Source: a virus. Taken from it: a stretch of 17,209 nucleotides of DNA. Both the position numbers and the translations under genes were made by a program. The notes beneath the pieces are model-generated. The model searched no databases. It was not told the origin of the DNA and worked only from the letters and a program-made list of their open reading frames with translations. Every line of letters starts with the position of its first letter. Position 1 is the first letter of the stretch. Where the stretch lies: UHGV virus genome UHGV-0341595. One strand, written 5' to 3'. Below are positions 2,989 to 17,135 of the stretch, piece after piece.

Positions 2989-3003
2989 CGCTGACTCTCC
3001 GGA

Positions 3004-3744: not shown

Positions 3745-3751
3745 ATCGTCC

Positions 3752-4722: not shown

Positions 4723-4733
4723 ACATCCCCCTT

Positions 4734-5087: not shown

Positions 5088-5098
5088 AGCGCCTCCCG

Positions 5099-5494
5099 TT
5101 ATTGCATTCTGGCCAGGCCATGTTCTGTCATTTCGGCTGCCACACCGGCAGAGACACGAAACGCCGTTCCCGGCAGCACAAATGCCACAGGCTCATCCCG
5201 CGTGGCGTGAAGTGCATCAGTATGCAGCGTCACCAGTGCCACGACCGTGACCAGAGCAGCCGTATCAATCACGGTATCCGGCTGCGCTGATACCACCTCA
5301 TTTTCATGTCCGGTCAGCGCATTTTCCGGGCTGACAGATGTGTCCTGACCGGCAGCGTCATCCGTGTCATCAAGCTCCTCTTCCAGCTCTGCCACACGGA
5401 GCACCAGTTCTTCTTTCGTCCCCGTCAGGCTGACATCACGGTTCAGTTGCTCACCCAGCACCTGAAGACGGGCAATCAGTTCATCTTTCGTCAT
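5099..5494 (-). CDS. FI: DNA packaging/head assembly protein FI (lambda gpFI-like)
   Basis: ORF track 5099..5533. I place the start at ATG 5494..5492 (MTKDELIARLQVLGEQLNRDVSLTGTKEEL...), preceded by GGAGGA; this gives ~131 aa, matching lambda FI. The upstream 13 codons of the track ORF are probably not translated. Confidence 0.85.
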   Translation of the reverse strand: MTKDELIARLQVLGEQLNRDVSLTGTKEELVLRVAELEEELDDTDDAAGQDTSVSPENALTGHENEVVSAQPDTVIDTAALVTVVALVTLHTDALHATRDEPVAFVLPGTAFRVSAGVAAEMTEHGLARMQ

Positions 5495-5535
5495 GGACTC
5501 CTCCACAGAGAGAAAATGGCCCCGAAGGGCCATGA

Positions 5536-6324
5536 TTACGCCAGTTGTACGGACACGAACGCATCAGGATCAGCCAGCAGCATCAGCGGTGCTGACTGAA
5601 TCATGGTGAACTCACGCGCCGGATCGCCGGTGGTCACCCAGTTTTTCGGGTAGCGGGCAGAGGCGTTAATACCTTCGCGCTGTGCGTCCGCATCCTGAAT
5701 GCAGCCATAGGTGCGCAGACCGCGTGCCTGAGTGTTCCCCAGCACCATCGTGTTGTCCGGCAGGAAGTTCTTTTTGACGTCGTTTTCCACGTACTGTCCG
5801 GAATACACGACGATCGCCGTATCGCCATACATCCCCTTATAGGACACCGCTTCGCCCAGGTCTTTTACCGCTGTCTCCAGCTCGGAATTAGAGCCGCGAC
5901 GGGTATCCAGCTTCTCCTTGACGGCTTTGAAGGAACGGAACAGCGCCCAGCCTTTCGGATCAAACACGATGATATTCACCACGCCGCTGGCGTTCAGCGC
6001 GTAGGCTTCGATATCGTCGGTCGGGTCATACGTGGACTTGTCACGCTTGCTCCACTCCGTGCCGCCGGACTGCGTGATGTTGTTCGCCGCACTGCGGCCC
6101 ATATCCACCTCAACCGGATCGAAGGCTTCACCGGTCATGGTGTATTTGCCCTTGAGCACGGCAGAAACTGCCTGCATCTCTTCGACCTGAGCAATGGCCA
6201 GCTCTTCGTCACGCATGTTCTGCAGGATGATGCGACGGCGGCGGTAAGCCGGGTCCGCCAGATTCTGCGGATCTTCATCCGGCAGGCGACGCAGGGTCAT
6301 CTGCGGATTCACCTCATGCTTCGG
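5536..6324 (-). pseudogene. E: Major capsid protein E (lambda gpE-like), 5-prime truncated: only the C-terminal ~260 codons remain
   Basis: Translation ...PKHEVNPQMTLRRLPDEDPQNLADPAYRRRRIILQNMRDEELAIAQVEEM ... PLMLLADPDAFVSVQLA corresponds to lambda E from about residue 82 to the end. The frame hits TAG at 6327..6325 exactly where composition switches to AT-rich. No E N-terminus upstream; the track ORF starts at an internal GTG. Confidence 0.85.
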
Positions 6325-6352
6325 CTACATGAGTCAATCCCGAAAGAACTAT

Positions 6353-6382
6353 TTGATTTCACTTAGCTTTGTGGTTTATATA
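6353..6382 (+). promoter_or_regulatory. Candidate sigma70-type promoter for the DUF262-HEPN cassette
   Basis: TTGATT (6353..6358), 18-nt spacer, TATATA (6377..6382), about 100 nt upstream of the DUF262 ATG in an AT-rich non-coding stretch. Pattern match only. Confidence 0.3.
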
Positions 6383-6480
6383 TCTACGCAACTCCTATCA
6401 CTGCAATACTTTCTGCAATACAGATATGTGTAGTGAGGACTTGTCTAAAAACCATATTCACGAAGAAAAAGGATGACACG

Positions 6481-7644
6481 ATGCAACCAGAAGATTATGA
6501 AGAAAAGCAATACGAGGATGAGCCAGAATCCTATCCAATTGATGAGTTTCAACTTACTACTACGCCCAATGATTTTAATATAATCACAATTATAAGTTTT
6601 ATTAAATCAAAAGTTTTTAAAATCCCTAACTTTCAAAGGCATTATGTTTGGGATATCAAACGAGCATCAAAACTCATTGAATCTCTTTTAATAGGCCTTC
6701 CTATACCTCAAATATTTTTATATGAACAAGATAAAAATGAATTTTTAGTGATAGATGGTCAGCAGAGATTAATGACCCTTTATTACTTTGTAAATGGTGT
6801 ATTCCCTAGAAAAGAGAAACGTTCTGAACTGAGAAAAATCTTTGAAGATAATGGAAACATTCCAGAAAACATTCTTCACAATGATGAATACTTCACAAAG
6901 TTCAACCTAAAACTTGATGGTCTATCAGACACCCAAAAAAACAAGTTTAATGGGAAAAACTATGAAACATTAAACGAATTTCAAACCACTTTAAATCTGG
7001 CAACCATACGAAATATGGTAATCAAACCGGTTGCACAAGATTCGGAAGATGGTGCAATGTTTGAAATATTTAACCGCCTAAATAGTGGGGGAATGAACCT
7101 TTCTCCTCAAGAAATTCGTATGAGTTTATATCACTCAGACTTTCTTTCAAATCTTGTTTCATTGAATGAAAACAAGACATGGAGAAAAATTCTTTCAAAA
7201 AATGTTGTTGACATGCGATTGAGTGATATTGAAGCGATATTGCGCACATTTGCTATGTCCCTTTTTACATCTCAATACAAAAGCTCAGTTAGCGGTTTTT
7301 TGAACAATTTCTCAAATTATGCAAAAAACTACGACACTAAAGACATAATTTTATTTAGTAATATATGGAATGAATTTATGGATAGTGTTGATGGAATTGA
7401 TGAAATCAATTTCAGAACTGGTGGGAATCGTATGAGTATAACTTTATTTGAGTCAATTTTTTATGCTGCAACTTATGACTCATTTAAAGATAAAGATCTA
7501 AAAATAAGACAAGTGACGGTGAATTATATCGATAAGCTTAAAAATGATCCTGAATTTCTGACATTTAGTACTGATAAAACAACAAGAAGAGAGCATGTAA
7601 TTGGACGTCTAGAACGTGCAAGAACAATTTTGGAGGGAATGTAA
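6481..7644 (+). CDS. DUF262 (ParB/Srx-like N-terminal nuclease/NTPase) domain protein, ~387 aa
   Basis: ORF track 6433..7644; likely start ATG 6481 (MQPEDYEE...) with AAGGA 7 nt upstream. Contains the hallmark DUF262 motif FLVIDGQQRLMTLYYF and a second conserved block FEIFNRLNSGGMNLSPQEIR. Low-GC codon usage unlike the flanking phage genes. Confidence 0.8.
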   Translation: MQPEDYEEKQYEDEPESYPIDEFQLTTTPNDFNIITIISFIKSKVFKIPNFQRHYVWDIKRASKLIESLLIGLPIPQIFLYEQDKNEFLVIDGQQRLMTLYYFVNGVFPRKEKRSELRKIFEDNGNIPENILHNDEYFTKFNLKLDGLSDTQKNKFNGKNYETLNEFQTTLNLATIRNMVIKPVAQDSEDGAMFEIFNRLNSGGMNLSPQEIRMSLYHSDFLSNLVSLNENKTWRKILSKNVVDMRLSDIEAILRTFAMSLFTSQYKSSVSGFLNNFSNYAKNYDTKDIILFSNIWNEFMDSVDGIDEINFRTGGNRMSITLFESIFYAATYDSFKDKDLKIRQVTVNYIDKLKNDPEFLTFSTDKTTRREHVIGRLERARTILEGM

Positions 7645-7648
7645 AATA

Positions 7649-8197
7649 ATGGAGGATATGGGATATACTTCTATTGAAAGTATGTTTAATAACTATAAGT
7701 GTTATTATGATTTTCTTCTAACTCATAATGAGATTAGTTTTGCTAATGATTACAAATCACAATTTTCAAAAGTAATGCTATTAGCATGTGCTAGCTATTT
7801 TGAAACTTTAGTTGTAACTAAGATACATTGTATGCTTAACCCAAGCCAATGTAATCTTACACACGATTTTATCGATAATAAGGCCCTAACCAGGCAGTAT
7901 CATACACTCTTTGATTGGAAAAAAAGGAATGCAAACCAGTTTTTTTCCTTTTTTGGCCCAAAATTTAAAGAGTTTATGATTGAGAAGGTAAAATCAAGCA
8001 CAGAGTTGACCAAGTCTATCTCTGATTTTATGGAAATCGGAGAGCTAAGAAATAAATTAGCACATAATAATTATGCTACTTTTGTATTAGAAAGCACAGC
8101 TGAAGAGATTTATAATAAATTTTTAAATGCACATTCATTTGTCTCTCAACTAGATACGTTCAGTACACAGTTTAGAGAGCAAATTGGTGAACAGTAA
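7649..8197 (+). CDS. Small HEPN-motif protein (putative RNase-type effector), ~182 aa, coupled to the DUF262 gene
   Basis: ORF track 7616..8197; likely start ATG 7649 (MEDMGYTSIE...), 5 nt after the DUF262 stop, with GGAGGG upstream. C-terminal ELRNKLAHNNY fits the HEPN R-x4-6-H motif. I recall HEPN-like nucleases of this type being annotated adjacent to DUF262 proteins. Family assignment is by motif only. Confidence 0.6.
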   Translation: MEDMGYTSIESMFNNYKCYYDFLLTHNEISFANDYKSQFSKVMLLACASYFETLVVTKIHCMLNPSQCNLTHDFIDNKALTRQYHTLFDWKKRNANQFFSFFGPKFKEFMIEKVKSSTELTKSISDFMEIGELRNKLAHNNYATFVLESTAEEIYNKFLNAHSFVSQLDTFSTQFREQIGEQ

Positions 8198-8235
8198 TAG
8201 TTTATCTCCAGCAAAAAAAATAACTTGCAAATAAT

Positions 8236-8262
8236 AAAAGCGGTCGCGTGACCGCTTTTTTC
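8236..8262. terminator. Bidirectional rho-independent terminator
   Basis: aaaaGCGGTCgcgtGACCGCtttttt: 6-bp GC-rich stem, 4-nt loop, A-run before and T-run after, 39 nt downstream of the HEPN stop. Confidence 0.75.
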
Positions 8263-8409
8263 TATTTATCATTGCTATTTTCCTTTATTATTTCAGCAAT
8301 TGACATAACTAAGGCGTCTGCTTTATTTCTAGTCCTATCAAACATATCTCTAATTACATCAATATAATAATGTTCCTCAAAAATATTTACGTCTGACAAA
8401 AGTATTGCA

Positions 8410-8456
8410 CAACTCTTGCCCAAAATGTCAGCCAGTTGATCTTTGTTGACTTCCAT
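8410..8456 (-). pseudogene. nu1: 5-prime fragment of terminase small subunit gene nu1 (first ~15 codons only)
   Basis: The track ORF 8262..8456 starts MEVNKDQLADILGKS, matching the lambda Nu1 N-terminus MEVNKKQLADIFGAS as I recall it, then diverges into AT-rich sequence with no further Nu1 similarity. The 64-aa ORF is most likely a chimeric remnant. Confidence 0.7.
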
Positions 8457-8676
8457 TGTTCATTCCACGGACAAAAACAGAGAAAGGAAACGACAGAGGC
8501 CAAAATGCCCGTTTTCAGCGCCTGTCATTTCCTTTCTTTTCAGGGGGTATTTTAAATAAAAACATAAAGTTACGGCGAAGAAGAACGGAAATGCCTTAAA
8601 CCGGAAAATTTCCATAAATAGAGAAAAACTGCGCGCCTGACGCCCCGTAGCCTGTCAGATCGCCGGAAAGGACCCG
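8457..8676 (-). other. Lambda-type cos site (cosQ-cosN-cosB), oriented with the minus strand
   Basis: The minus strand reads ...GGGTCCTTTCCGGCGATCTGACAGGCTACGGGGCGTCAGGCGCGCAGTTTTTCTCTATTTATGGAAATTTTCCGGTTTAAGGCATTTCCGTTCTTCTTCG...GAAAAGAAAGGAAATGACAGG...GGCCTCTGTCGTTTCCTTTCTCTGTTTTTGTCCGTGGAATGAACAATGGAAGTCAAC, near-collinear with the lambda left end/cos region as I recall it, ending at the nu1 start. cosN core is around 8630..8650. Confidence 0.75.
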
Positions 8677-8701
8677 CCAGCCAGAGCGGGCCCTAATTTC
8701 A

Positions 8702-9085
8702 TCAACCAATCAGCTTATAGCGACCATCCCGTGCATTGCGGCGTACACGCTCAATCTTGAGGCATAGCGCCGCATCTGGCTTTTTTGGGACAGGTACGCG
8801 GCAATATTCAGAAGCGCGAGGAATATTATTTATCCAGTCGATCACTTCACTTAAATACCAGGCCTTACGCCCTTCCGTAACCTGCACACGCTCCGGGAAC
8901 TCTCCACTAGCCTCAAGGTTTAGCAGTGTACGCCGACTCAGGGTTGTAATTTCCATCACCTGATTCATATCAACAAGGCGCTCGCTTAAACACATTTTGT
9001 CAGCGATAGCTTTTAATTCCTCTACAGCTGGATTCGGGTACATCATTTCGGCAATTGGCTTAAGGTCATTGTAATCATTCTGCAT
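8702..9085 (-). CDS. AlpA/MerR-like HTH domain protein, 127 aa, last gene of the E-like/D-like operon, abutting cos
   Basis: ORF track 8702..9085. Central segment MEITTLSRRTLLNLEASGEFPERVQVTEGRKAWYLSEVIDWI fits the AlpA-family HTH pattern. RBS AAGGGGGA 5 nt before the ATG; start is 11 nt after the D-like stop. Confidence 0.6.
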   Translation of the reverse strand: MQNDYNDLKPIAEMMYPNPAVEELKAIADKMCLSERLVDMNQVMEITTLSRRTLLNLEASGEFPERVQVTEGRKAWYLSEVIDWINNIPRASEYCRVPVPKKPDAALCLKIERVRRNARDGRYKLIG

Positions 9086-9096
9086 TGTATCCCCCT

Positions 9097-9438
9097 TTAC
9101 ACACGAGCCAGCGGCTGAACAGAAATACCTGAGCCAACAAACGCTGCAATCTTTACTGACAGTTCTTTTACAGACTCAGGCCAGTTCAGAGCATCAACAT
9201 TTAAGACACCTGTCTTATAGACCTGAGCCTGTGTTTTTTTCGCGGTGTCGATTTGTACAGCGGAAACATAAACCGCTTTACCTACGCTCGAACCATCCCA
9301 TACCACCAGTGCACCTGTTGCATCTTCCTGCATCAGTGGCGTAAATGCAGGAATTACCCCTTTATTAGCTGAAAATATCCCCAGCGTAGTCACCAGTGCT
9401 TCAGTGCCAGCCATGAGTTCAGTGTAATGAGTAGCCAT
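9097..9438 (-). CDS. Head decoration protein, lambda gpD family (divergent), 113 aa
   Basis: TPLMQEDATGALVVWDGSSVGKAVYVSA...KTGVLNVDALNWPESV...KIAAFVGSGISVQP parallels lambda D (TPLMLDTSSRKLVAWDG...LWPEA...AFAGTAISIV) in size and motif order. GGGGGAG RBS overlaps the E-like stop. Confidence 0.7.
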   Translation of the reverse strand: MATHYTELMAGTEALVTTLGIFSANKGVIPAFTPLMQEDATGALVVWDGSSVGKAVYVSAVQIDTAKKTQAQVYKTGVLNVDALNWPESVKELSVKIAAFVGSGISVQPLARV

Positions 9439-9447
9439 TGCTCCCCC

Positions 9448-10488
9448 TTAGCCAATGCGAACGGTAACAAAACGATTGATGCGGGCCGGTATTGGCTGTG
9501 GTGCTGAATGTGTCTGCACATATTCAATAGCCGGATCACCAGGCACAATATAGTTTTTCGGTGCAAGTTCGGCTTTAGTCAGCCCCATTCGGATTAGCTC
9601 CGGATCCTGAATACCGCCATAGGCGACAATCCCCTGAAGAGCCGTATTGCCAAGCACCATCAAATCAGGATCAAGGAAATGTTTTTCAGTTCCGTCCTCG
9701 TCGGTATAACGCCCGCTGTATACAACAATCGCAACATCGCCCATATACCCTTTAAAACTCACCGAATCACCAAGGTCTTTAAGAGCCGTTTCCAGTTCGG
9801 AATTAGAACCACGACGGGTATCCAGAGCCTCTTTTATCGCTCTGAATGAACGGTATTTCTTCCATACATTACCGCCCATAATGATGATATTAGTGACGCC
9901 CTCACTAAATTCTGCGTAGCTCTCAATATCATCATTTGGATCAAAAGTTTCTTTATCCTTACCTGACCACTCAGCACCGCCAGACTGAGTGATGATATTT
10001 TGTGGTTTAATATTCCAGTCCAGCTCATAACGTTCAATACCATCGCCCTCAATGATATTTTTCCCCGTTGTGATTGCCTGAACGGCAAGCCATTCAATAC
10101 GTGCACGAATAGCTTTAGCCTGATTTACAATCGCCTGTTTAACTTTAATATTACGCGCTCCAAAAGCATTGTATTGCTCAGGTGATACACCAGCAGGGCG
10201 CACAGCTAACTTATTTGGATCAATGCTGCTTTTCGGCTTCATATAGCCTGGACGAATTGTTTTTGATTCGTACCCTTCGTCACGTGAAACTTTACTACCC
10301 GCCATAGGAGAACAAAACGCTGCAATTGGGATATTTGGATCGTCGATTGTATCAAGAATAATATCGCGCGATTCAAACATTACCGAGCGAGTAAAAAACA
10401 AACTGGTAAACAACGCATTTAGTTGTTTTTGTACATCTACAGCATTAACCACCTGTACAAGCTGGGTAGGCGAATATAAATCAACCAT
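9448..10488 (-). CDS. Major capsid protein, lambda gpE family (divergent, apparently intact), ~346 aa
   Basis: ORF track 9448..10662 (404 aa). Similarity to lambda E starts near MRMVDLYSPTQLVQ; AAGAGG RBS favours ATG 10488 (alternative 10494). Shares long identical stretches with the truncated E in this window (DTRRGSNSELETA, AIVVYSG, ITQSGG) but is otherwise divergent. The first ~57 track codons are probably untranslated leader. Confidence 0.8.
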   Translation of the reverse strand: MVDLYSPTQLVQVVNAVDVQKQLNALFTSLFFTRSVMFESRDIILDTIDDPNIPIAAFCSPMAGSKVSRDEGYESKTIRPGYMKPKSSIDPNKLAVRPAGVSPEQYNAFGARNIKVKQAIVNQAKAIRARIEWLAVQAITTGKNIIEGDGIERYELDWNIKPQNIITQSGGAEWSGKDKETFDPNDDIESYAEFSEGVTNIIIMGGNVWKKYRSFRAIKEALDTRRGSNSELETALKDLGDSVSFKGYMGDVAIVVYSGRYTDEDGTEKHFLDPDLMVLGNTALQGIVAYGGIQDPELIRMGLTKAELAPKNYIVPGDPAIEYVQTHSAPQPIPARINRFVTVRIG

Positions 10489-10662
10489 ACGCATCCTCTT
10501 TGCATTCATTAAAAATAATTGTGGATATATGCTATCACCGATATTTGTCATGCGAATACATGCAACCGAGTGCAATGTTGTATAAAGTTTTGGGATAACA
10601 ACTTCAGCGCGGATAATTAGTGTTAATATCTTCACTCCCTTTGGCCGGGATTTATGTAGCAT

Positions 10663-10696
10663 GCCGGAAAATTTATTTTTTTCCGGCCTTTTTTAT
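10663..10696 (+). terminator. Hairpin with plus-strand intrinsic-terminator features
   Basis: GCCGGAAAA-tttattt-TTTTCCGGC followed by CTTTTTTATT on the plus strand, between the ssb stop and the E-like upstream region. There is no U-tract in the minus orientation, so it would stop transcription antisense to the capsid operon. Confidence 0.45.
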
Positions 10697-10705
10697 TGGC
10701 AATAT

Positions 10706-11155
10706 TTAAAACGGAATATCATCTCCCCATTGTTCATTATCTCCCACTGGTGGATGGCTTCCTTGCTGATCTGCCTGTTGTTTTGCTCTGTTCAGTGCGT
10801 CAGTAGCCTGACCCTGTTGACCTTTTTTGCCGCCCGGTCGCACCGTTCGCGCACTGATTACGCTGTCTGCGATAACCTGCCAGCCCTGCCGCGTTTCACC
10901 GTTCTGTCCAGTCCACTGGCTCACCTGCATATTACCCGCCACGCTCAGGAGTTCGCCTTTGTGATGCTTTGCCAGCGCGTCGGCTTGTCTGCCAAACGCC
11001 AGGACAGATAACCACATCGTCGCCTGACCGTCATCCGACTGACTGCAGGGCAGTGATACCGCCATACGCGCCAGCGTCATGGGGGTGCCCTTGCTGGTCT
11101 GTTTTGTCTGCGGGTCGTCCACCAACCGCCCGTAAACTGATATTTGCGCCGTCAT
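10706..11155 (-). CDS. ssb: Single-stranded DNA-binding protein (SSB-like), 149 aa
   Basis: N-terminal OB-fold pattern VYGRLVDDPQ...TLARMAV...WLSVLAFGRQADALAKHHKGELLSVAGNMQVSQWTGQNGETRQGWQV, a Gly/Gln-rich linker and the acidic C-terminal tip GDDIPF typical of bacterial/phage SSB. Confidence 0.8.
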   Translation of the reverse strand: MTAQISVYGRLVDDPQTKQTSKGTPMTLARMAVSLPCSQSDDGQATMWLSVLAFGRQADALAKHHKGELLSVAGNMQVSQWTGQNGETRQGWQVIADSVISARTVRPGGKKGQQGQATDALNRAKQQADQQGSHPPVGDNEQWGDDIPF

Positions 11156-11397
11156 GCTGCCTGCTCTCCGGACTTAATATTGATTGTTGTCACTTCCTCC
11201 GCTTCAGCAATCTCCCGTTCGGTCAGAGTGGCAAAGTTTGCAGCCGCCGTTGTCATGAATGCGCTAATCAGTTCGGGATGTGCTTTCGCGTATCCTTCCC
11301 CGGCGTTGCGGTCGATGATTTTTATCGACACCCTTAACCAGTGTTCCGTCAAATCAAGGGCGTGCGATTGTGATTTTTTTGTGTGCTTCGCTGTCAT
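11152..11397 (-). CDS. Hypothetical protein, 81 aa, translationally coupled to ssb
   Basis: ORF track; ATGA overlap with the ssb start; directly downstream of the iteron cluster. No recognisable motif. Confidence 0.45.
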   Translation of the reverse strand: MTAKHTKKSQSHALDLTEHWLRVSIKIIDRNAGEGYAKAHPELISAFMTTAAANFATLTEREIAEAEEVTTINIKSGEQAA

Positions 11398-11443
11398 AGG
11401 CTTTATCTCACAGCAGTAAATTAAAATTTTTGCGTTTTAACCC

Positions 11444-11680
11444 TTCACCTGTTCACCTTTTGATATTTTCTCTTTTAATTCATAATGTTAATGGGTGAAC
11501 AGTTTCACAAAAACTATTCACCAACTGTTCACCACTGTTCACCACTGTTCACCCTTGAAGCTCAATAAACAATCAAAAAGGTGAACAGTGAATAGTTTGG
11601 TGAACAGTTCATAAATAACTGTTCACCCTATAATATACTGATATAAAAGATATTTATGACAGGGTGAACAGTGGTGAACA
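11444..11680. repeat. Iteron cluster (putative replication origin): at least 10 perfect copies of TGTTCACC/GGTGAACA plus degenerate copies
   Basis: TGTTCACC at 11450, 11526, 11536, 11546, 11620; GGTGAACA at 11494, 11580, 11599, 11663, 11673; degenerate TATTCACC 11515 and GTGAATAG 11588. Lies just after the primase stop (11695). The octamer is the P4 type I iteron bound by P4 alpha in ori/crr, as I recall it. Confidence 0.8.
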
Positions 11681-11694
11681 GTTATTCCATAAGT

Positions 11695-13515
11695 TTAATT
11701 TTTGCTATCGTCATTAGTGACCGATACACATGATGGCATCCAGTCTTCTGATTCCTCCGTCAGTGTCACGTTTGAACGCAAACCGTGCTTCGTTTTCCGT
11801 TTCATATACTCCCTGCCATATTCCGCCATTGCCCCCGGCATATCTTTACCGAAGCGCGTCAGTGTTACAGGTTTACCAAACCCATGTGCCCTCATATAAG
11901 CCAGATAGGCATGATAGAGATACCTGCGTGGGCTGAATGGCACAATTTCAGCATTACCCACTAACAGGCCATCACACATTACCGATGCCATGAGATAGCC
12001 GCAGAAGTCCACCAGCGAATCCCCCTCTCGCTTTATCGCCAGTGCTTCTTCAGATTTCTGCTGCTCATATAACAGGCGTCTGGCTTCGTCCTGATCAGCA
12101 AACCGTGTAAGCAGATGGCGAATCACTACCGCCAGCTCACCTTCTATTTTTTCCGCCAGCATCGAATCGCGTTCGTTCTCCGGTACAACTTCCGAAAAAT
12201 TGAATATCACCCGACGACGTGAGATCCCCCCGCTGCGGTCACTGAATGACATGGCGTTATTGTTAACCGCCAGCACTACTGCCGGAATACGCGTTGAATA
12301 GGGGGCTTTGTGTTTCGGGTCAATTGCCACCTTGTCACCGCCTGTAATGGCCTTAATCCCTGCCCCATCACCAGCGTAGCGGGTCATATCCGGCATGATA
12401 ATCAGCGAAAAGCCAACCACTAACGCACGTTCCCTTGCATCTTCCAGCGCCTTCATGCTTGCTGATACTGTATTAGCCTTACCCGCCAGCATGGTGCAAA
12501 TCTCCGCCATCACACTTTTACCACTTCCCCCCGGCCCTGTTACCTCAATGAATAACTGCCAGTCGTACCGGTTCGCCAGCACCATGAATAATGCCGCCAG
12601 TACGCGATCTGCCTTGCGGTCATTCTCAGCCACCGAACGGCGCAACCACTTCCAGAAATTCGGCGCATGTGTTGCCAGCGTTTCCCCCTCTGCTGGTGGG
12701 CTGAAAGGTAATTCACTGGCAATTAACAACCAGTCGTTTTTGTTATGCTCCCGAAAATTACCAGTTCTGGTATCAAATACCCCGTTACTGAATCCAATCA
12801 GGTTACGGGCTGTATTCCCCATTACAGGCAAACTTAACTTCATGGTATCTACCGCCGATTTAATAGCGTTCTGCGAATAGCTGATCTCCGCATCAATGAA
12901 AATCTGCGCCATAGCACGCTGTAACTCTTTATCCTGAACCGGCTCCCATACAACGCCGTTGTAATGATGAACGGTGTCAGAGTCGGCATTGATTGCCAGT
13001 TCGCCGCCGTAATGTGCAAGGAGAACTTCACCGCGCTGGCTGGCCCCCATCTGATTCAACGCCAAAGATGAAGCACGCTCGTCATTTTTGCGCTCTGCCT
13101 TCTTCACTGGCAGTTCAATCACCAGACTTTCCCCATGCTCCGCTTCAGCTTTTAGGCCGACAAGGCGCGGAGTCCAGTCTTCAGGCTCTCGATCAACAAA
13201 GCTACGGTAACAACGTGCTTCCTTTACGCCTGCAATAGCAAGTAATGTCGCAACCTTCGTCAGACTTTTCTCTGCAATCTTTCCGGCACGATAAACACGC
13301 ACATAATGACGGCCTTCATCGATAATTTGCATATCATCCAGGTTTTCCAGTTGTTCCGTACCCAGAATGACTGGTGGTGTATCATCTGCTGCAATATGCT
13401 TACCTGCCCATTCATTCCATTCTTTTGCATGACTCCAGGCATCACTGCCAGCAAAAATGATGACTTCCGTCATTTTGTCGCGCGGTTGGTATTTTAAGTT
13501 CGGAGCACGTTTCAT
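11695..13515 (-). CDS. Replication initiator primase/helicase (P4 alpha-like; D5_N/SF3 NTPase type), 606 aa
   Basis: ORF track 11695..13515; strong GGAGG RBS 5 nt before the ATG; Walker A GPGGSGKS in the central region; size and position (after int-alpA, before iterons) typical of P4/PICI replication proteins. Confidence 0.8.
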   Translation of the reverse strand: MKRAPNLKYQPRDKMTEVIIFAGSDAWSHAKEWNEWAGKHIAADDTPPVILGTEQLENLDDMQIIDEGRHYVRVYRAGKIAEKSLTKVATLLAIAGVKEARCYRSFVDREPEDWTPRLVGLKAEAEHGESLVIELPVKKAERKNDERASSLALNQMGASQRGEVLLAHYGGELAINADSDTVHHYNGVVWEPVQDKELQRAMAQIFIDAEISYSQNAIKSAVDTMKLSLPVMGNTARNLIGFSNGVFDTRTGNFREHNKNDWLLIASELPFSPPAEGETLATHAPNFWKWLRRSVAENDRKADRVLAALFMVLANRYDWQLFIEVTGPGGSGKSVMAEICTMLAGKANTVSASMKALEDARERALVVGFSLIIMPDMTRYAGDGAGIKAITGGDKVAIDPKHKAPYSTRIPAVVLAVNNNAMSFSDRSGGISRRRVIFNFSEVVPENERDSMLAEKIEGELAVVIRHLLTRFADQDEARRLLYEQQKSEEALAIKREGDSLVDFCGYLMASVMCDGLLVGNAEIVPFSPRRYLYHAYLAYMRAHGFGKPVTLTRFGKDMPGAMAEYGREYMKRKTKHGLRSNVTLTEESEDWMPSCVSVTNDDSKN

Positions 13516-13799
13516 TTGTTACCTCCGGCAACTAACATTGCCCGAATTTTACGGATATAGCCTGCGGCACGCCTCTGATTATCTGTCTTGCAATTTTTTA
13601 CCAGAATGAAATCTCTTTCGAACTGCTGACGCGGCATAACACATTCAAAATCATAACCATCACGCAAATAAGAGACACGACGATCATCAACCGAAATAAT
13701 CTTTACCCGATAGCCATAGCTGTCTTTAAAAATATCCCCAAGGCTGATTTTTGAATGAGTTTGACCGCTGGCAATAAAGCCAGAAAATTTATTTTTCAT
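13512..13799 (-). CDS. Hypothetical protein, 95 aa, coupled to primase
   Basis: ORF track; stop overlaps the primase ATG (ATGA). No recognisable motif. Confidence 0.45.
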   Translation of the reverse strand: MKNKFSGFIASGQTHSKISLGDIFKDSYGYRVKIISVDDRRVSYLRDGYDFECVMPRQQFERDFILVKNCKTDNQRRAAGYIRKIRAMLVAGGNK

Positions 13800-13802
13800 T
13801 TT

Positions 13803-14027
13803 TTATTCTCCGGTATAGCTCTGGTCGTGTATTTTTATAGCTTCATCCAGCTCTTTGATGACAGGATCAAGTAACGTAATTAACGCTCCAGCTAAATTAG
13901 CATCCCGTTCATCGTGTTCCGCATTTGTTGTCCCATCAAGCCAGGTTGATAAGATTTCTCGCATATTTTTGCCACAAACGAGCGCGTTTTCAGCATGTGT
14001 CAGCACTTTAAAATAAAGATCATTCAT
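13803..14027 (-). CDS. Hypothetical protein, 74 aa
   Basis: ORF track; tightly packed in the same operon (3-nt gap to the next gene). No recognisable motif. Confidence 0.4.
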   Translation of the reverse strand: MNDLYFKVLTHAENALVCGKNMREILSTWLDGTTNAEHDERDANLAGALITLLDPVIKELDEAIKIHDQSYTGE

Positions 14028-14385
14028 GGCACACCTCCTGACGAATACGGGCAGCGAATATCATCACGTAGCCAGTTGGGGATTGCAGCCGGGCTTCCTG
14101 TTCGCTGGCGGCCTCGATGTGTATTACGCGTGGTTGTGCGGTGCTCAGGGCGATAAAACGCCAGATGAAATTGTTTTCGCATTTCTGAATAAACAGCGTG
14201 TTTTCTTCACGCCCTTTCCAGAAAGCCGCAGTATAGCCCATCTCCTTAACCATCTTGCGGGCATCAACCAGCGTGTCAGCGGCTACATGTACCGTAGTTG
14301 CTCCATCTGCCATGCGGTCGTGGTGTAGTGCCAGAAAGGTGTATATAAATTTAGGGTGAGTTTGGGTATGCTGTGTTCCAGCCAT
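14020..14385 (-). CDS. Hypothetical protein, 121 aa, first gene of the replication-side operon
   Basis: ORF track; 8-nt overlap with the downstream ORF; preceded by a palindromic regulatory region. No recognisable motif. Confidence 0.45.
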   Translation of the reverse strand: MAGTQHTQTHPKFIYTFLALHHDRMADGATTVHVAADTLVDARKMVKEMGYTAAFWKGREENTLFIQKCENNFIWRFIALSTAQPRVIHIEAASEQEARLQSPTGYVMIFAARIRQEVCHE

Positions 14386-14415
14386 AATCGTTACCTCATT
14401 TAACGGGTTGGTTAG

Positions 14416-14448
14416 ACGCCTCGATGGTGTTCCCGCACGTCGAGGCGT
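14416..14448. promoter_or_regulatory. 9-bp inverted repeat hairpin in the leader of the minus-strand operon
   Basis: ACGCCTCGA (14416..14424) and TCGAGGCGT (14440..14448) with a 15-nt loop, followed on plus by TGCATTTTCC. Could be an attenuator/terminator or a protein-binding site. Confidence 0.4.
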
Positions 14449-14468
14449 TGCATTTTCCTAAACACGTA

Positions 14469-14522
14469 TGTAATGTGTCATCACACATTAACACATTACA
14501 TCGGGTGTAATTGACGTGTCAA
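14469..14522. promoter_or_regulatory. Operator-like palindromes in a divergent control region
   Basis: TGTAATGTGT (14469..14478) is the reverse complement of ACACATTACA (14491..14500); ACACATTA is tandemly repeated (14483, 14491); second palindrome TTGAC-GT-GTCAA at 14511..14522 overlaps a -35-like TTGACG. Confidence 0.5.
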
Positions 14523-14695
14523 CACACAAAAATCAAAGACGTGGTAATCCTCCGTTCCAGTTTCGGTTAGATCCTGAGTTGAGGGAGTTGATGGAGCAAG
14601 CACAGCAAGTAGATGGAGACGAATCTTTAGCAGCCTGGATTAAAAGGATTATTCGCAAAGAACTACAGCAACGCGGATATGAAGTCAAAATTTAA
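14516..14695 (+). CDS. Small ribbon-helix-helix-like putative regulator (59 aa from GTG 14516, or 34 aa from ATG 14591); not in the ORF track
   Basis: Hand translation: VSTHKNQRRGNPPFQFRLDPELRELMEQAQQVDGDESLAAWIKRIIRKELQQRGYEVKI, stop TAA 14693..14695. The FQFRLDPELRELMEQA segment fits the RHH beta-strand/helix pattern. GAGGGAG lies before the ATG at 14591. Only plus-strand gene in the satellite backbone. Confidence 0.4.
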   Translation: MSTHKNQRRGNPPFQFRLDPELRELMEQAQQVDGDESLAAWIKRIIRKELQQRGYEVKI

Positions 14696-14708
14696 CAGAT
14701 AATATTTC

Positions 14709-14741
14709 ATATAGAGCCATTTATCTCGAATGGCTCTATAT
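14709..14741. terminator. Bidirectional terminator hairpin between convergent genes
   Basis: 12-bp perfect stem (14709..14720 and 14730..14741) with a 9-nt loop, AT-rich flanks; between the RHH ORF end (14695) and the TIR-like gene end (14771). Confidence 0.6.
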
Positions 14742-14770
14742 CTATGCAGATTTTTAGTTCAAAGAATTTA

Positions 14771-15646
14771 CTAAACTGCGTAACCAGTAGCTCGCAAGTC
14801 TTTAATAATGCTATATGCTACTTCTTCAATAGAAGAATTGAATTTTTTATAAATAAGACCATTCAAATCACTTGGAATCACTACATCACCTGTGTATAGA
14901 CAACAAACCTTAGAACGACCTAATTTCCCTACGAAATAACCAAATTCAAACATTACATTTGGTCGTGCACGTAACTCCTTTTCTCTTTCATTATCAGGTA
15001 AAGAGTCTTGCGGCAATAAATAAGCGATCTCATCAGGTGTGAGAAGAATGAATGCGAAACCAACATCACTATTTGCTTCAAATTTCTCAATCACTGTCTG
15101 ACCTACATCAGCTTGCCTATGGAGAACAATAGGTTCTAAGCCAATTTCTCTTAAAAACACTTCTAAGTTGGTTTTTGATATTTCATCTCTTCCATGAACA
15201 ATGAATACTTTTTTGGTTTTTACCGCTGAACTCTGAGGTACTTCAATATTTTCTTCAACAACTTTGGAAGATATAGGAATTAACTCCAGTCGCTCCATAA
15301 TCGACTCTAGTTTTCTTATCTTACTCTGGAGTTTACGCGTAGCCTCACTGATTTTTTCTCCCAAGGAAGTCTCGTACAATGAAATAACACCAAATGCCCC
15401 ACCTTCATATTCTTCTTTGAAATCATCATTTGTGAAACTACGCTTCAGTAGCTCAGCATTAAAATCACTCCATTTCCTGTAATCAGCATTAAACAGCTCC
15501 AAGTCACTATTGTTATTTATGCTTTTCTGTAGGAGTAATAATCCTTTTTGAATTCTGTCTTGAATTTTATCTTTCATATCATCTCTTGATATGATTAGTT
15601 CACAAACAGTTTTCATTTCTACGCTATTTTTTTTTCGAGTAGCCAT
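14771..15646 (-). CDS. TIR-like domain protein (C-terminal, resembling the predicted nucleotide-binding TIR-like family) with N-terminal helical domain, 291 aa; putative defence effector
   Basis: C-terminal half KKVFIVHGRDEISKTNLEVFLREIGLEPIVLHRQADVGQTVIEKFEANSDVGFAFILLTPDE ... RARPNVMFEFGYFVGKLGRSKVCCLY matches the conserved blocks of that family as I recall them. N-terminal ~140 aa is charged and helical. Gene is strongly AT-rich relative to int/alpA and the primase. Confidence 0.6.
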   Translation of the reverse strand: MATRKKNSVEMKTVCELIISRDDMKDKIQDRIQKGLLLLQKSINNNSDLELFNADYRKWSDFNAELLKRSFTNDDFKEEYEGGAFGVISLYETSLGEKISEATRKLQSKIRKLESIMERLELIPISSKVVEENIEVPQSSAVKTKKVFIVHGRDEISKTNLEVFLREIGLEPIVLHRQADVGQTVIEKFEANSDVGFAFILLTPDEIAYLLPQDSLPDNEREKELRARPNVMFEFGYFVGKLGRSKVCCLYTGDVVIPSDLNGLIYKKFNSSIEEVAYSIIKDLRATGYAV

Positions 15647-15682
15647 GCTTACACCCTTTTATATAACAATTTACTACAACAT

Positions 15683-15910
15683 TTATGTCCGCCATTCCCC
15701 CCTAATCCATGCCTGAACTTCGGAGAGACGGTAAGCTACCGCAGTAGCGCCAATCTTGATCCGCTTAGGAAATTTTCCTTCCTTCTCCAGCTTCCAGCGT
15801 GTGCTGTTCGCAAGAGTGGTTAGCTCCCGACATTCTTTCTCACGGATCATACGATCAATGTTAGGAATGTACTCCAGACCCTTTTTATCAACAATTGCCA
15901 TTTTTTTCAT
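15683..15910 (-). CDS. alpA: AlpA-family transcriptional regulator, 75 aa
   Basis: CRELTTLANSTRWKLEKEGKFPKRIKIGATAVAYRLSEVQAWI fits the AlpA HTH pattern; starts 2 nt after the integrase stop. True start may be an internal Met. Confidence 0.8.
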   Translation of the reverse strand: MKKMAIVDKKGLEYIPNIDRMIREKECRELTTLANSTRWKLEKEGKFPKRIKIGATAVAYRLSEVQAWIRGEWRT

Positions 15911-15911
15911 G

Positions 15912-17135
15912 TTAACCAGCCTTTTGTTTGAGGATTGTCACTTTTGAATCAGCACCTGCGATGCTATTGAGATATGTAGTCCAGAGTTCCAGAGCATCCA
16001 GTTTTTTAGCCATAAACTTACTCCGATTGTAAACACCTGCCACGCCAGGTAGCGCATGGCCTAACAGTTGTTCTACTACATAAAATTCAACACCGAGATC
16101 ACTTAGATGAGTAGATAGCGTTCTTCTAAGGTCGTGTAGTGACCATTGTTTTTCATGGCCCAAACGTTTACCGATTTTCCCCCCAATCTTGCTTACGCTT
16201 TCTCTAATTCGCAGACTTCCCAGCACATAACCAGTATGTTTTGTCTCTTCGTGAACATCCGTTACCCACTGTCGTAGAATTTCAGGTACTGGTCTGACGA
16301 TTTCAACACCAGTTTTTGAGTGATCTTTTGGTACAGTCCAAACCCAACTTTCGAGATCCCATTCGCTCCATTCTGATAATCGGGCTTCACTCATTCGACA
16401 TCCAAATACTGTACAAAGCACAAACATTTTTCGCGTGTATTCAGACATTAGTTTTAAATCAGGCTCGACAAAAATTGCCTTCCAGAGCTGGCCGAGTTCG
16501 GCTTCATCCAGAACCCGATCCCGCTTACCTGCAATCTGCCCCACATCACTCATGCGCAAATCCTTTAAAGCATCACACGTCGCGTACTGGCGTACCCGAC
16601 AAAAACGAAGAGCTAATTTAGTGTCAGAAAAAACATACGCCGCCATAACTGGTGCATTACGTTTAATTCGGTCAAAACAGTCCAGCCATTCATATAGGTG
16701 AGTGTCATTTACGGGCAAATGACCGATATAGGGAAAGATATGCTTTCGAAATCTGCCAAGCGTTACAGCATGAGTTTTACGACGCACCTTACAGTAATTT
16801 TCATACCAGTAATTTAGTGCATCCTCCACTGTGACCGGCTTTAAGCGTTCTTCAGCCTGAATCTTAATCTGGATACGCGGATCACGTTTGTCAGCCAACC
16901 AACCACGGCACTCGTCGCGCTTTTCCCTTGCCTGTTTGAGTGACATATCAGGATATTTACCCAACGTTAGCCAGACCGGAGCATCCCGGCCACCTGCTAA
17001 CCTGTAGAAGAAAACAAAGCTCACAGCCCCTTTAGTACTCACACGAATAGAAAGCCCCTTTCCATCAGCGTAAGCGTGCAGTGAGAACCGTATTGACGAA
17101 GTGAAGCTGGTCAGGCAGGCAGAGTAACCCGCCAC
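15912..17135 (-). CDS. int: Tyrosine site-specific integrase (P4-type), ~407 aa
   Basis: N-terminal arm-binding-like region (ADGKGLSIRVSTKGAVSFVFFYRLAGG...LTLGKYPDMSLKQAREKRDE); C-terminal catalytic motifs HDLRRT and LLGHA...GVAGVYNRS with the tyrosine. GTG start at 17135; exact start uncertain. Confidence 0.88.
   Translation of the reverse strand: MAGYSACLTSFTSSIRFSLHAYADGKGLSIRVSTKGAVSFVFFYRLAGGRDAPVWLTLGKYPDMSLKQAREKRDECRGWLADKRDPRIQIKIQAEERLKPVTVEDALNYWYENYCKVRRKTHAVTLGRFRKHIFPYIGHLPVNDTHLYEWLDCFDRIKRNAPVMAAYVFSDTKLALRFCRVRQYATCDALKDLRMSDVGQIAGKRDRVLDEAELGQLWKAIFVEPDLKLMSEYTRKMFVLCTVFGCRMSEARLSEWSEWDLESWVWTVPKDHSKTGVEIVRPVPEILRQWVTDVHEETKHTGYVLGSLRIRESVSKIGGKIGKRLGHEKQWSLHDLRRTLSTHLSDLGVEFYVVEQLLGHALPGVAGVYNRSKFMAKKLDALELWTTYLNSIAGADSKVTILKQKAG

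What the first reader, a model, noticed from the sequence alone, without database searches (positions are those of the whole stretch)
11444..11680. Dense array of P4-type iterons immediately downstream of the primase gene
At least ten perfect copies of the octamer TGTTCACC occur in both orientations within about 240 bp, including three tandem copies at 10-bp spacing (11526..11553), plus degenerate copies. This matches what I recall of the P4 alpha-binding type I iteron and marks the likely origin. It supports a P4-like replication module in an element whose morphogenesis genes are lambda-like.
Basis: partly seen in the sequence, partly recalled or inferred. Interest (0 to 1): 0.45.

Follow-up and report, generated by a model that had tools for sequence, protein, structure and literature searches.

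The report
Replication origin of embedded phage satellite
The repeat cluster is real and is almost certainly the replication origin of a small phage satellite (a PICI) that sits inside a lambda-like prophage's capsid gene; it uses the same 8-base protein-binding repeat as satellite phage P4, but this type of origin and this element are already described, so it is a solid but ordinary finding.

Summary
Observation confirmed. TGTTCACC occurs 11 times in the window, 10 of them in 11450-11680 (chance expectation 0.6). Three copies are tandem at 10-bp spacing. All ten are phased at ~10.5 bp. Two 35/36-bp spacers of 80-83% AT sit between inverted copies; one of them is the least stable duplex in the window.

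The octamer is the annotated type 1 ori repeat of phage P4. The rep-proximal half of the array (11580-11680) is colinear with the P4 ori core, and the distal half (11442-11522) with a P4 crr unit. The adjacent 606-aa gene is 51% identical to the helicase and origin-binding part of P4 alpha and matches PDB 1KA8. It lacks P4's zinc-ribbon/Toprim primase domains.

In 20+ relatives the array keeps its layout. The iteron core changes together with one short segment of the origin-binding domain.

The element is a helper-embedded PICI, close to the published 11capE, inserted in a lambdoid prophage's capsid gene E. The homologous rep-ori of EcCICFT073 replicates experimentally (published).

Verdict: a Rep-bound satellite origin; a new member of a known kind; low to moderate interest.

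The parts
11695..13515 (-). rep ('pri-rep'): 606-aa P4-alpha-family SF3 helicase with a C-terminal winged-helix origin-binding domain (aa 498-594) and a non-P4 N-terminal module (aa 1-135)
11663..11680 (-). two tandem iterons (GGTGAACAGT x2 on the + strand), nearest to the rep stop codon; right arm of the ori-core module
   Evidence: Colinear with P4 9396-9413.
11628..11662 (.). 35-bp spacer, 80% AT; candidate DNA-unwinding element of the ori-core module
   Evidence: The 30-bp window starting at 11628 is the least stable of the whole window (dG -27.0 against a mean of -40.5). Same 35-bp length as the P4 ori spacer 9361-9395, with a shared 5' part CTnTAAnnTACTG.
11620..11627 (+). single iteron facing the spacer; left arm of the ori-core module
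   Evidence: Equivalent to P4 9353-9360.
11580..11606 (-). two exact iterons (11580, 11599) with a degenerate copy between them (11587); equivalent to the three tandem iterons of P4 ori
   Evidence: Aligned to P4 9310-9338.
11526..11553 (+). three tandem iterons at exact 10-bp spacing (ACTGTTCACC x3); central cluster, two copies in the closest relatives
   Evidence: W284 has 2 copies. The best E. coli hits are 10 bp shorter.
11494..11522 (.). one exact iterons on the minus strand (11494-11501) and one degenerate iteron on the plus strand (TATTCACC, 11515-11522); inner arm of the crr-like module
11458..11493 (.). 36-bp spacer, 83% AT, of the crr-like module; second candidate melting site
   Evidence: 83% AT and within the least stable 1.1% of 30-bp windows. 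Shares 'ttttctcttttaatt' with both P4 crr repeats.
11442..11457 (+). degenerate (CCTTCACC) plus exact iteron; outer arm of the crr-like module
   Evidence: Aligned to TGTTCACAcTGTTCACC of P4 crr.
11417..11435 (.). A/T tract (gtaaattaaaatttttgcg) at the distal edge of the array; conserved in relatives and present as A(5-6)nT(5-8) beside each P4 crr unit
10706..11397 (-). two genes directly downstream of the origin: an 81-aa protein (11152-11397, phrog_1231) and a single-strand DNA-binding protein (10706-11155); same order in EcCICFT073
6325..17069 (-). the satellite that owns the origin: a helper-embedded PICI inserted in prophage gene E; cut at 17069/17070 by an IS66-family element
   Evidence: PMC10111431.

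Best explanation
The array is the origin of replication of a ~10.8-kb helper-embedded PICI satellite. It holds the binding sites for the satellite's own initiator, encoded by the gene that ends 14 bp away.

Architecture. The origin is composite. A rep-proximal module (11580-11680) is colinear with the ori core of phage P4. A distal module (11442-11522) is colinear with one unit of the P4 cis replication region (crr). Three phased iterons (11526-11553) lie between them. Each module is a 35/36-bp AT-rich spacer bracketed by inward-facing iterons.

Proposed mechanism. (1) Rep monomers bind ACTGTTCACC through the C-terminal winged-helix domain. (2) Specificity probably lies in a hairpin segment, KRKTKHG-LRSN, aa 572-582. 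(3) Because the sites are phased at ~10.5 bp, the proteins sit on one face of the helix and oligomerise. (4) The AT-rich spacers melt. (5) The SF3 helicase part of Rep loads and unwinds. (6) The SSB encoded just downstream coats the single strands. (7) Priming comes either from Rep's Toprim-like N-terminal module or from the host primase.

Shown here: the sites, their phasing, the instability of the spacers, homology to P4 ori/crr and to P4 alpha, and conservation and co-variation in relatives. Taken from the literature: replication driven by the homologous EcCICFT073 rep-ori, and origin recognition by P4 alpha. Inferred: binding, the melting site and the priming route in this element.
For: Clustering and form.
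- 10 of 11 exact copies lie in 231 bp, against 0.6 expected in the whole window.
- Phasing at 10.5-10.6 bp, R = 0.85-0.90; 0 of 2000 random placements reach this.
- The 11628 spacer is the least stable 30-mer of the 17.2 kb; the 11460 spacer is in the least stable 1.1%.

Homology to P4.
- TGTTCACC is P4's annotated ori type 1 repeat in both ori and crr.
- The proximal half has the same order, orientation and spacings as P4 ori: successive starts 21, 43, 10 bp apart against 22, 43, 10 in P4.
- The distal half aligns to both P4 crr units, including the spacer sequence.
- Rep aa 149-596 are 51% identical to P4 alpha aa 323-771. Rep aa 498-594 match the solved P4 origin-binding domain 1KA8.

Relatives.
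- In Rep-homologue loci from many Enterobacterales an iteron array always follows rep. It is the only cluster in the element.
- Iteron columns are 89% conserved against 52% for the other columns inside the array (p = 5e-12).
- The iteron core switches in concert at all positions: TGTCTACC, TGTCCRCC, TGTGCACC, TCTCTACC.
- These switches track changes confined to Rep aa ~570-582, while the rest of the OBD stays about 70-83% identical among the PICI-type and Serratia relatives. P4 alpha shares both the octamer and the hairpin motif.

Experiment in a homologue.
- EcCICFT073 has the same rep-ori-hyp-ssb layout and a Rep 44% identical over its full length.
- Its rep-ori supports plasmid maintenance, and this needs both rep and ori (PMC6092414).
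Against: - There is no experiment on this element. Rep binding, the melting site and the firing of this origin are all inferred.
- For 11capE, helper-driven passive replication could not be separated from autonomous replication (PMC10111431).
- Rep lacks P4's recognisable primase domains, so the priming step is open.
- The satellite in this strain has an IS66-truncated integrase and may be decaying. Against that, rep is intact and the iterons are unusually perfect.
- Placing the specificity segment in the 'wing' rests on canonical winged-helix topology. My single-sequence model of the OBD was unusable (pLDDT 39.5).
- A regulatory role for the same sites, in transcription of the downstream genes or in copy control, is not excluded and could coexist with origin function.
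Confidence: 0.9

Rival explanations
1. The array is only a crr-type cis-acting enhancer of replication. The true initiation site lies elsewhere in the element, as in P4, where crr follows alpha and ori is about 4.7 kb away.
For: In P4 the sequence directly downstream of alpha is crr, not ori. The distal part of the array is crr-like. One more 10/10 match to ACTGTTCACC exists 3.3 kb away at 8186.
Against: The proximal half of the array is colinear with the P4 ori core itself, including the 35-bp spacer. No second cluster exists in the window or in the complete relative L002. The lone 8186 copy lies inside a cargo HEPN gene and has no AT-rich partner. In EcCICFT073 the region downstream of rep was sufficient as ori (PMC6092414).
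Confidence: 0.04
2. The repeats are mainly a transcriptional operator. Rep, or another protein, would bind there to control the downstream hyp-ssb-capsid genes or to set copy number, and initiation would not depend on them.
For: Iterons in plasmids often double as operators or handcuffing sites (general knowledge). The array lies between rep and the next genes, with no terminator.
Against: No sigma-70-like promoter is found in 11100-11900 (0 found against 1.6 expected). The array lies downstream, not upstream, of rep. The AT-rich spacers, the helical phasing and the colinearity with P4 ori are origin features. Deletion of the homologous region in EcCICFT073 reduced plasmid maintenance.
Confidence: 0.04
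3. It is a packaging (cos/pac) or partition site of the satellite rather than an origin.
For: Satellites need a packaging signal. Repeated protein-binding sites also occur in centromere-like and pac sites (general knowledge).
Against: The repeat is the documented binding motif class of the neighbouring initiator family. It co-varies with that protein's DNA-binding domain. No partition genes or terminase genes lie next to it.
Confidence: 0.01
4. It is an inactive relic: a once-functional origin in a satellite that is now decaying in this strain.
For: The integrase is truncated by an IS66-family insertion. The close relative E04 carries four more IS elements in the same satellite.
Against: The rep ORF is full length. 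The window has more perfect iterons (10) than any relative examined (2-9), plus an extra tandem copy. Decay would degrade the sites, not perfect them.
Confidence: 0.05

Closest known systems
Gram-negative PICI pri-rep/ori replicon, type example EcCICFT073 (Fillol-Salom et al. 2018, PMC6092414)
   Same: The origin lies directly downstream of rep and is followed by a small gene and ssb. Sets of iterons flank AT-rich DNA. Rep is 44% identical over its full length, including the N-terminal module. The element is organised int-alpA ... DUF4222-rep-ori-ssb-capsid E-like/D-like.
   Different: The iteron core is TGTTCACC here and T[G/A/C]TCTACC in EcCICFT073. The OBD hairpin segment differs: KRKTKHGLRSN against TRKVKGVTQTN. 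This element is embedded in a prophage gene, whereas EcCICFT073 is at a chromosomal site.
Satellite phage P4 replicon: alpha protein with ori and crr (NC_001609)
   Same: The octamer is identical. The proximal module has the same order, orientation and spacing as the P4 ori core. The distal module is homologous to a crr unit. Both have the same orientation relative to rep/alpha. The helicase and origin-binding domains are 51% identical, and the hairpin motif K-R-x-T-K-x-G-[IL]-x-[ST]-N is shared.
   Different: P4 keeps ori and crr about 4.7 kb apart on either side of the alpha operon, whereas here they are contiguous. P4 has two 120-bp crr units, type 2 repeats and a terminator after alpha; none is found here. 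P4 alpha has Zn-ribbon and Toprim primase domains; this Rep does not. No Cnr homologue was found. No sid, psu, delta or epsilon genes are present.
HE-PICI 11capE of E. coli NRG857c (Tommasini, Mageeney & Williams 2023, PMC10111431)
   Same: Essentially the same element. The NRG857c chromosome matches the rep-ori-ssb segment at 98.9% and the window at 97.7%. Both are inserted in, and co-oriented with, the major capsid gene of a lambdoid prophage.
   Different: This copy has three rather than two central tandem iterons and an IS66-family insertion in int. In the text I could read, the paper mentions the origin but does not describe its sequence or its relation to P4.
SaPI replication origins (Ubeda et al. 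2007, cited in PMC6092414; otherwise my own knowledge)
   Same: The logic is the same: the origin lies just 3' of the initiator-helicase gene, two sets of short iterons flank an AT-rich region, and initiator and iterons are matched allele by allele.
   Different: The hosts are Gram-positive. No sequence relationship was tested here, and the iteron sequences differ. This is a 'works like' comparison, not membership.

Membership tests
Gram-negative PICI pri-rep/ori replicon | Origin located immediately downstream of the pri-rep gene | tested here: met
   The array starts 14 bp after the rep stop codon. The position is the same in EcCICFT073 and in more than 20 relatives.
Gram-negative PICI pri-rep/ori replicon | [quoted passage not shown] 2 legend) | tested here: met
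   Inverted iterons bracket spacers of 80% and 83% AT. These are the least stable DNA in the window.
Gram-negative PICI pri-rep/ori replicon | Initiator homologous to PICI Pri-Rep | tested here: met
   44% identity over 598 aligned positions to EcCICFT073 Pri-Rep, E = 8e-172, N-terminal module included.
Gram-negative PICI pri-rep/ori replicon | PICI gene organisation: int, alpA, replication zone, then late genes, all in one direction | tested here: met
   int, AlpA, TIR cargo, Icd-like, DUF4222, rep, ori, ssb, and the E-like and D-like genes are all on the minus strand.
Gram-negative PICI pri-rep/ori replicon | rep plus ori are sufficient for autonomous replication | not testable with these tools
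   Shown only for EcCICFT073 in the literature.
Helper-embedded PICI (HE-PICI) | [quoted passage not shown] | tested here: met
   Prophage gene E is split at '...KPKH|EV...'. Its C-terminal fragment is at 5536-6324, and its N-terminal fragment lies beyond int in strain W284.
Helper-embedded PICI (HE-PICI) | Integrase belongs to the 11capE integrase clade | not tested
   No phylogeny was made. The DNA is 97.7-98.9% identical to the NRG857c element that defines the clade.
Phage P4 replicon (alpha, ori, crr) | Type I iteron TGTTCACC | tested here: met
Phage P4 replicon (alpha, ori, crr) | Alpha-type SF3 helicase followed by a winged-helix origin-binding domain | tested here: met
   51% identity over 449 aa. 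PDB 1KA8 E = 1.9e-24.
Phage P4 replicon (alpha, ori, crr) | N-terminal zinc-ribbon and Toprim (DnaG-type) primase domain in the same protein | tested here: not met
   [not shown]
Phage P4 replicon (alpha, ori, crr) | ori and crr are separate loci, kilobases apart, on either side of the alpha operon | tested here: not met
   There is a single contiguous 240-bp array and no second cluster.
Phage P4 replicon (alpha, ori, crr) | Type 2 repeats (CAYTTAAAGY x3) in ori | tested here: not met
   5 scattered one-mismatch hits against 4.45 expected; none lies near the array.
Phage P4 replicon (alpha, ori, crr) | Cnr copy-number regulator encoded upstream of alpha | tested here: not met
   The gene in that position is DUF4222. 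It gives no BLASTP alignment to P4 ORF106, the P4 gene directly upstream of alpha, which I recall to be cnr. Only sequence was compared, so a structural analogue is not excluded.
Phage P4 replicon (alpha, ori, crr) | P4 satellite gene set (sid, psu, delta, epsilon) | tested here: not met
   None of the satellite's ORFs that were scanned gave a Psu, Sid, delta or epsilon family hit.

The most novel reading that the evidence does not exclude
The Gram-negative PICI origin is a fused version of the P4 ori and crr, so the two satellite families share one ancestral replicon module. This would go against the published statements that the PICI origin organisation occurs in 'no other known bacterial replicon' and that the satellite families are unrelated. 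This PICI and P4 also share both the octamer and the OBD hairpin motif. Their initiators might therefore cross-fire each other's origins, or make the two satellites incompatible, in E. coli cells that carry both, even though they exploit different helper phages. Swapping the ~11-aa hairpin (aa 572-582) would then be the way new specificity or incompatibility groups arise.
Probability: 0.35. Interest if true: 0.5.

Novelty: new member of a known kind. Interest (0 to 1): 0.3.

Why it matters
Practically, it fixes the origin and the cognate initiator of a widespread E. coli satellite: related rep-ori DNA is in 1052 of 5426 complete genomes. That is useful for annotation and for building PICI-based delivery vectors.

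Conceptually, there are two modest points.
- The replicon of this PICI is clearly homologous to that of phage P4. They share the iteron, the spacings and a 51% identical helicase/OBD. This softens the view that the two satellite families are unrelated.
- The concerted switches of the iteron core, together with one short protein segment, give a ready-made natural experiment on how initiator-origin specificity evolves.

Neither point would greatly surprise a specialist. PICI initiators are already annotated as 'P4-family primases', and iteron origins downstream of pri-rep were published in 2018.

Tried and rejected
- Full-text search for the octamer returned only primer sequences.
- The old P4 papers (Lindqvist 1993; Ziegelin 1993) are not held. 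Alpha binding to the iterons therefore rests on the P4 record's annotation, on the paper title in a reference list and on my own knowledge.
- The iteron sequences in Fig. 2a of PMC6092414 are not in the text or the supplements. I could not check whether a TGTTCACC-type PICI origin was already drawn there.
- The cf-PICI preprint says nothing about origins.
- The promoter and terminator scan of 11100-11900 found nothing.
- Rfam found nothing in the whole window.
- P4 type 2 repeats are absent.
- A relationship between DUF4222 and P4 ORF106 (which I recall to be Cnr) was rejected by BLASTP.
- The single-sequence AlphaFold model of the OBD was unusable (pLDDT 39.5), so the 'wing' assignment stays an inference.
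- I first assumed the window's last 140 bases were the same ISCro1 insertion as in strain E04. That was wrong: it is a different IS66-family insertion at a different position in int.
- cf-PICI was considered for the element and dropped, because it has no portal, protease or terminase genes.

Full report
1. THE OBSERVATION

The octamer TGTTCACC occurs 11 times on both strands of the 17,209-base window. Ten copies lie between 11450 and 11680, five in each orientation. Dinucleotide-preserving shuffles of the window give a mean of 0.60 copies and never more than 3. Three copies are tandem at 11526, 11536 and 11546. Degenerate copies lie at 11442, 11515 and 11587.

With flanks, the unit is the 10-mer ACTGTTCACC in 9 of the 10 copies. 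The ten exact copies are phased with a period of 10.5-10.6 bp (R = 0.85-0.90; none of 2000 random placements reaches this). They therefore lie on one face of the helix.

Two spacers sit between inward-facing copies. They are 35 bp (11628-11662, 80% AT) and 36 bp (11458-11493, 83% AT); the window as a whole is 52% AT. The 30-bp stretch starting at 11628 is the least stable duplex in the entire window, and the other spacer is in the least stable 1.1%.

The array fills the gap between the stop codon of a 606-aa minus-strand ORF (11695-13515) and the start of the next minus-strand ORF (11152-11397). It contains no ORF of 50 aa or more that lies within it, no sigma-70-like promoter, no intrinsic terminator and no Rfam family.

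2. IS IT THE P4 ITERON?

It annotates 'ori type 1 repeats' in the origin (9310-9413) and in crr, the cis replication region that lies directly downstream of the alpha gene (4291-4590). These repeats are TGTTCACC. Six copies are exact in ori. In crr, five are exact and five have one mismatch. The recalled consensus is right.

The resemblance goes beyond the motif. Read in the sense of the rep/alpha gene, both P4 ori and window 11580-11680 have the following order:
- two tandem iterons;
- a 35-bp AT-rich spacer whose first 13 bases are CTnTAAnnTACTG in both;
- one inverted iteron;
- a 13-14 bp gap;
- three tandem iterons, the middle one degenerate in the window.

Successive start positions are 21, 43 and 10 bp apart in the window, and 22, 43 and 10 bp apart in P4.

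Window 11442-11522 aligns instead to each of the two 120-bp crr units. The shared elements are the TGTTCACAcTGTTCACC pair, the spacer motif ttttctcttttaatt and the inverted copies. A run of A followed by a run of T borders the unit in both.

The window's array is therefore a P4-ori-like module and a P4-crr-like module joined by three extra phased iterons. Both modules are oriented relative to rep as in P4. In P4 the two are about 4.7 kb apart.

3. THE NEIGHBOURING GENE

Rep has Pfam D5_N, DUF5906 and Pox_D5 domains. Its residues 149-596 are 51% identical to P4 alpha residues 323-771, E = 8e-163. Residues 498-594 match the solved origin-binding domain of P4 alpha (PDB 1KA8) at E = 1.9e-24.

[quoted passage not shown] Its origin recognition is the subject of Ziegelin et al. 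1993. I could see that paper only as a title in a reference list.

The first ~148 residues of the window's Rep do not align with alpha. P4's N-terminus hits Zn_Ribbon_Prim and Toprim_3. The window's N-terminus hits nothing in Pfam at E <= 10 and nothing in NCBIfam.

'Primase gene' is therefore the database name, not a demonstrated property. The helicase and the origin-binding domain are what matter for the array.

4. WHAT ELEMENT IS THIS?

The window holds two nested elements.
- Positions 1-6324 carry lambda-like tail and head genes: V, U, Z, FII, FI and the C-terminal part of capsid gene E, all on the minus strand. The E reading frame breaks at '...KPKH|EVNPQ...'.
- From 6325 to 17069 lies a satellite. 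It has GmrSD-like and HEPN genes on the plus strand. On the minus strand it has an AlpA-like gene, a D-like and an E-like gene, ssb, an 81-aa gene, the array, rep, DUF4222, a 74-aa gene, an Icd-like gene, a TIR-domain gene, alpA and int.

In strain W284, RefSeq annotates the two halves of prophage gene E as pseudogenes on either side of the same element. Beyond them lie D, the S49 protease, portal and terminase genes.

This arrangement is published as the helper-embedded PICI '11capE' of E. coli NRG857c (PMC10111431). The NRG857c chromosome matches the rep-ori-ssb segment at 98.9% and the window at 97.7%. [quoted passage not shown] In the text I could read, it does not describe the sequence.

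5. EXPERIMENTAL ANCHOR

Fillol-Salom et al. [quoted passage not shown] They showed that the EcCICFT073 rep-ori segment maintains a plasmid at the restrictive temperature, and that this depends on both rep and ori.

I fetched that locus. Its gene order is the same: DUF4222, rep, origin, small gene, ssb. Its Rep is 44% identical to the window's over the full length, N-terminal module included. Its origin has the same layout, but the iteron is TGTCTACC, with degenerate TATCTACC and TCTCTACC copies. The window's array is thus an allelic form of an experimentally supported origin.

6. RELATIVES: CONSERVATION AND CO-VARIATION

A scan of one genome per species returned 72 Rep-homologue loci.

A repeated 8-mer follows rep in the PICI-type and Serratia, Proteus and Symbiopectobacterium loci examined. 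In most loci no copy of TGTTCACC lies outside the 500 bp downstream of rep.

Among seven relatives from six genera that use TGTTCACC, iteron columns are 89% identical to the window. The remaining columns inside the array are 52% identical (p = 5e-12).

Other lineages keep the layout but change the core at all positions together:
- TGTCTACC in L007, L011 and L012;
- TGTCCGCC or TGTCCACC in Serratia;
- TGTGCACC in Proteus;
- TCTCTACC in Symbiopectobacterium.

Only the central three bases of TGTnnnCC vary.

I aligned the origin-binding domains by iteron class. The putative recognition helix (...TRFGxDMPGAMAEYG...) is nearly constant across three PICI classes. It differs between the window and P4, which share an iteron. 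The classes differ in one segment, window residues ~570-582:
- KR[KH]TK[HQN]G-[IL][RQ][ST]N in the TGTTCACC class, P4 included;
- a 5-residue insertion (…CT[KR]GPDKGR…) in the TGTCTACC class of L007, L011 and L012;
- KKAESKKKATRGR… in Serratia;
- KFKTKRGYYYN in Proteus;
- TR[CK][IV]KGVTQTN in EcCICFT073 and Symbiopectobacterium.

In a canonical winged helix this segment would be the beta2-wing-beta3 hairpin, which contacts DNA in Rfx and Orc1/Cdc6 (PMC2777425). I could not confirm the assignment by modelling.

This co-variation is the strongest internal evidence that Rep reads these repeats.

7. MECHANISM AND RIVALS

The best explanation is a Rep-bound origin. Phased binding to the iterons would lead to oligomerisation, melting of the bracketed AT-rich spacers, loading of the SF3 helicase, and coating of single strands by the SSB encoded next door. 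The priming step is unresolved. I give this 0.9.

The rivals are as follows.
- A crr-only enhancer with the real origin elsewhere. Against it: the ori-core module is itself present, and there is no second cluster.
- A purely transcriptional operator. Against it: no promoter is found, and the sites lie downstream of rep. A secondary regulatory role remains possible.
- A packaging or partition site. Nothing supports it.
- A dead relic. Against it: rep is intact, and this copy has the most perfect iterons of all relatives examined.

8. COMPARISON WITH THE KNOWN, AND NOVELTY

The array passes every testable criterion of the Gram-negative PICI replicon and of a helper-embedded PICI.

It works like, and is homologous to, the P4 replicon. 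It is not a P4 replicon in the strict sense. There is no Zn-ribbon/Toprim primase domain. ori and crr are contiguous rather than separated. There are no type 2 repeats and no Cnr homologue. No P4 morphogenesis-control genes are present.

The 2018 paper calls the homology of Pri-Rep to P4 'distant' and the origin organisation unique to PICIs. Another paper calls the satellite families phylogenetically unrelated (PMC7145576). For the replication module, the data here say otherwise. This is an incremental correction. It is not a new kind of system, so the finding is a new member of a known kind, with interest about 0.3.

9. LIMITS

Nothing was tested at the bench. Figures of the papers are not available to me, so a TGTTCACC-type PICI origin may already have been drawn in Fig. 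2a of PMC6092414. Cross-reactivity with P4 is a prediction only.

Noticed in passing
window 5536-6324 and 6325-17069; L003 13795-14583 and 25560-25805: The iteron-bearing element is a ~10.8-kb satellite inserted inside the major capsid gene E of a lambdoid prophage, with the break at '...KPKH|EV...'. It is co-oriented with that gene and carries its own E-like (9448-10662) and D-like (9097-9438) genes. This matches the published helper-embedded PICI 11capE (PMC10111431).
   Followed up: yes
window 17069/17070 to 17209: The last 140 bases are the end of a multicopy IS66-family element (100% identity, found in 443 E. coli genomes). It cuts off about the first 26 codons of the satellite's integrase. 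The satellite probably cannot excise in this strain, which would leave the prophage capsid gene permanently split. Strain E04 has a different IS66-family (ISCro1) insertion in the same gene, plus three more IS elements in the satellite.
   Followed up: yes
window 11526-11553: The central tandem iteron cluster has three copies here but two in W284. The closest E. coli relatives are 10 bp shorter over the same segment (891 against 901 bases). Iteron copy number is therefore polymorphic, presumably through slippage.
   Followed up: partly
window 8184-8193 (minus strand): A lone full 10/10 match to ACTGTTCACC lies 3.3 kb from the array, at the 3' end of the HEPN cargo gene. A 10-mer match is expected about 0.03-0.04 times by chance. 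It has no AT-rich partner and is absent from the complete relative L002, so it is probably chance, but a stray Rep site is not excluded.
   Followed up: partly
[not shown]
   Followed up: partly
L004-L075, L077 (regions downstream of rep); Rep aa ~570-582: There are at least five iteron specificity classes (TGTTCACC, TGTCTACC, TGTCCRCC, TGTGCACC, TCTCTACC). Each is paired with a distinct version of one short OBD segment. Xenorhabdus and Photorhabdus P4-like loci seem to use yet another repeat (about GATGTATAG), which was not analysed.
   Followed up: partly
window 11417-11435; P4 (L001) 4290-4306 and 4470-4486: A run of A followed by a run of T borders the crr-like module in the window, in all PICI relatives and in both P4 crr units. 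Its role (bend, unwinding, host-factor site) is unknown.
   Followed up: no
window 6433-8197 (+) and 14771-15646 (-): The satellite carries defence-like cargo at two places. One is a GmrSD_N/DUF262 gene with a RiboL-PSP HEPN gene, on the strand opposite to the rest of the satellite. The other is a CAP12/Pycsar-type TIR-domain gene between alpA and the regulatory zone.
   Followed up: no
window 8702-9085 (-): A second, longer AlpA-family gene (127 aa; phrog_2790, excisionase/transcriptional regulator) lies at the far end of the satellite, after the D-like gene. It is in addition to the alpA next to int (15683-15910).
   Followed up: no
window 9448-10662 (-): The satellite's E-like capsid ORF is 404 aa from its first ATG, but RefSeq aa (1041 nt) in W284 and E04. 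The Pfam match starts at residue 70, so the true start is uncertain.
   Followed up: no
L002 (LR881103, 'Escherichia phage vB_KppS-Ant', 16.5 kb): The only phage-database record with a similar origin (73.5% identity) is an 'induced prophage' of 16.5 kb. It has int, rep, capsid, portal, terminase and a protein annotated as tape measure, so it looks like a capsid-forming PICI deposited as a phage. It has 8 TGTTCACC copies, all downstream of rep.
   Followed up: partly
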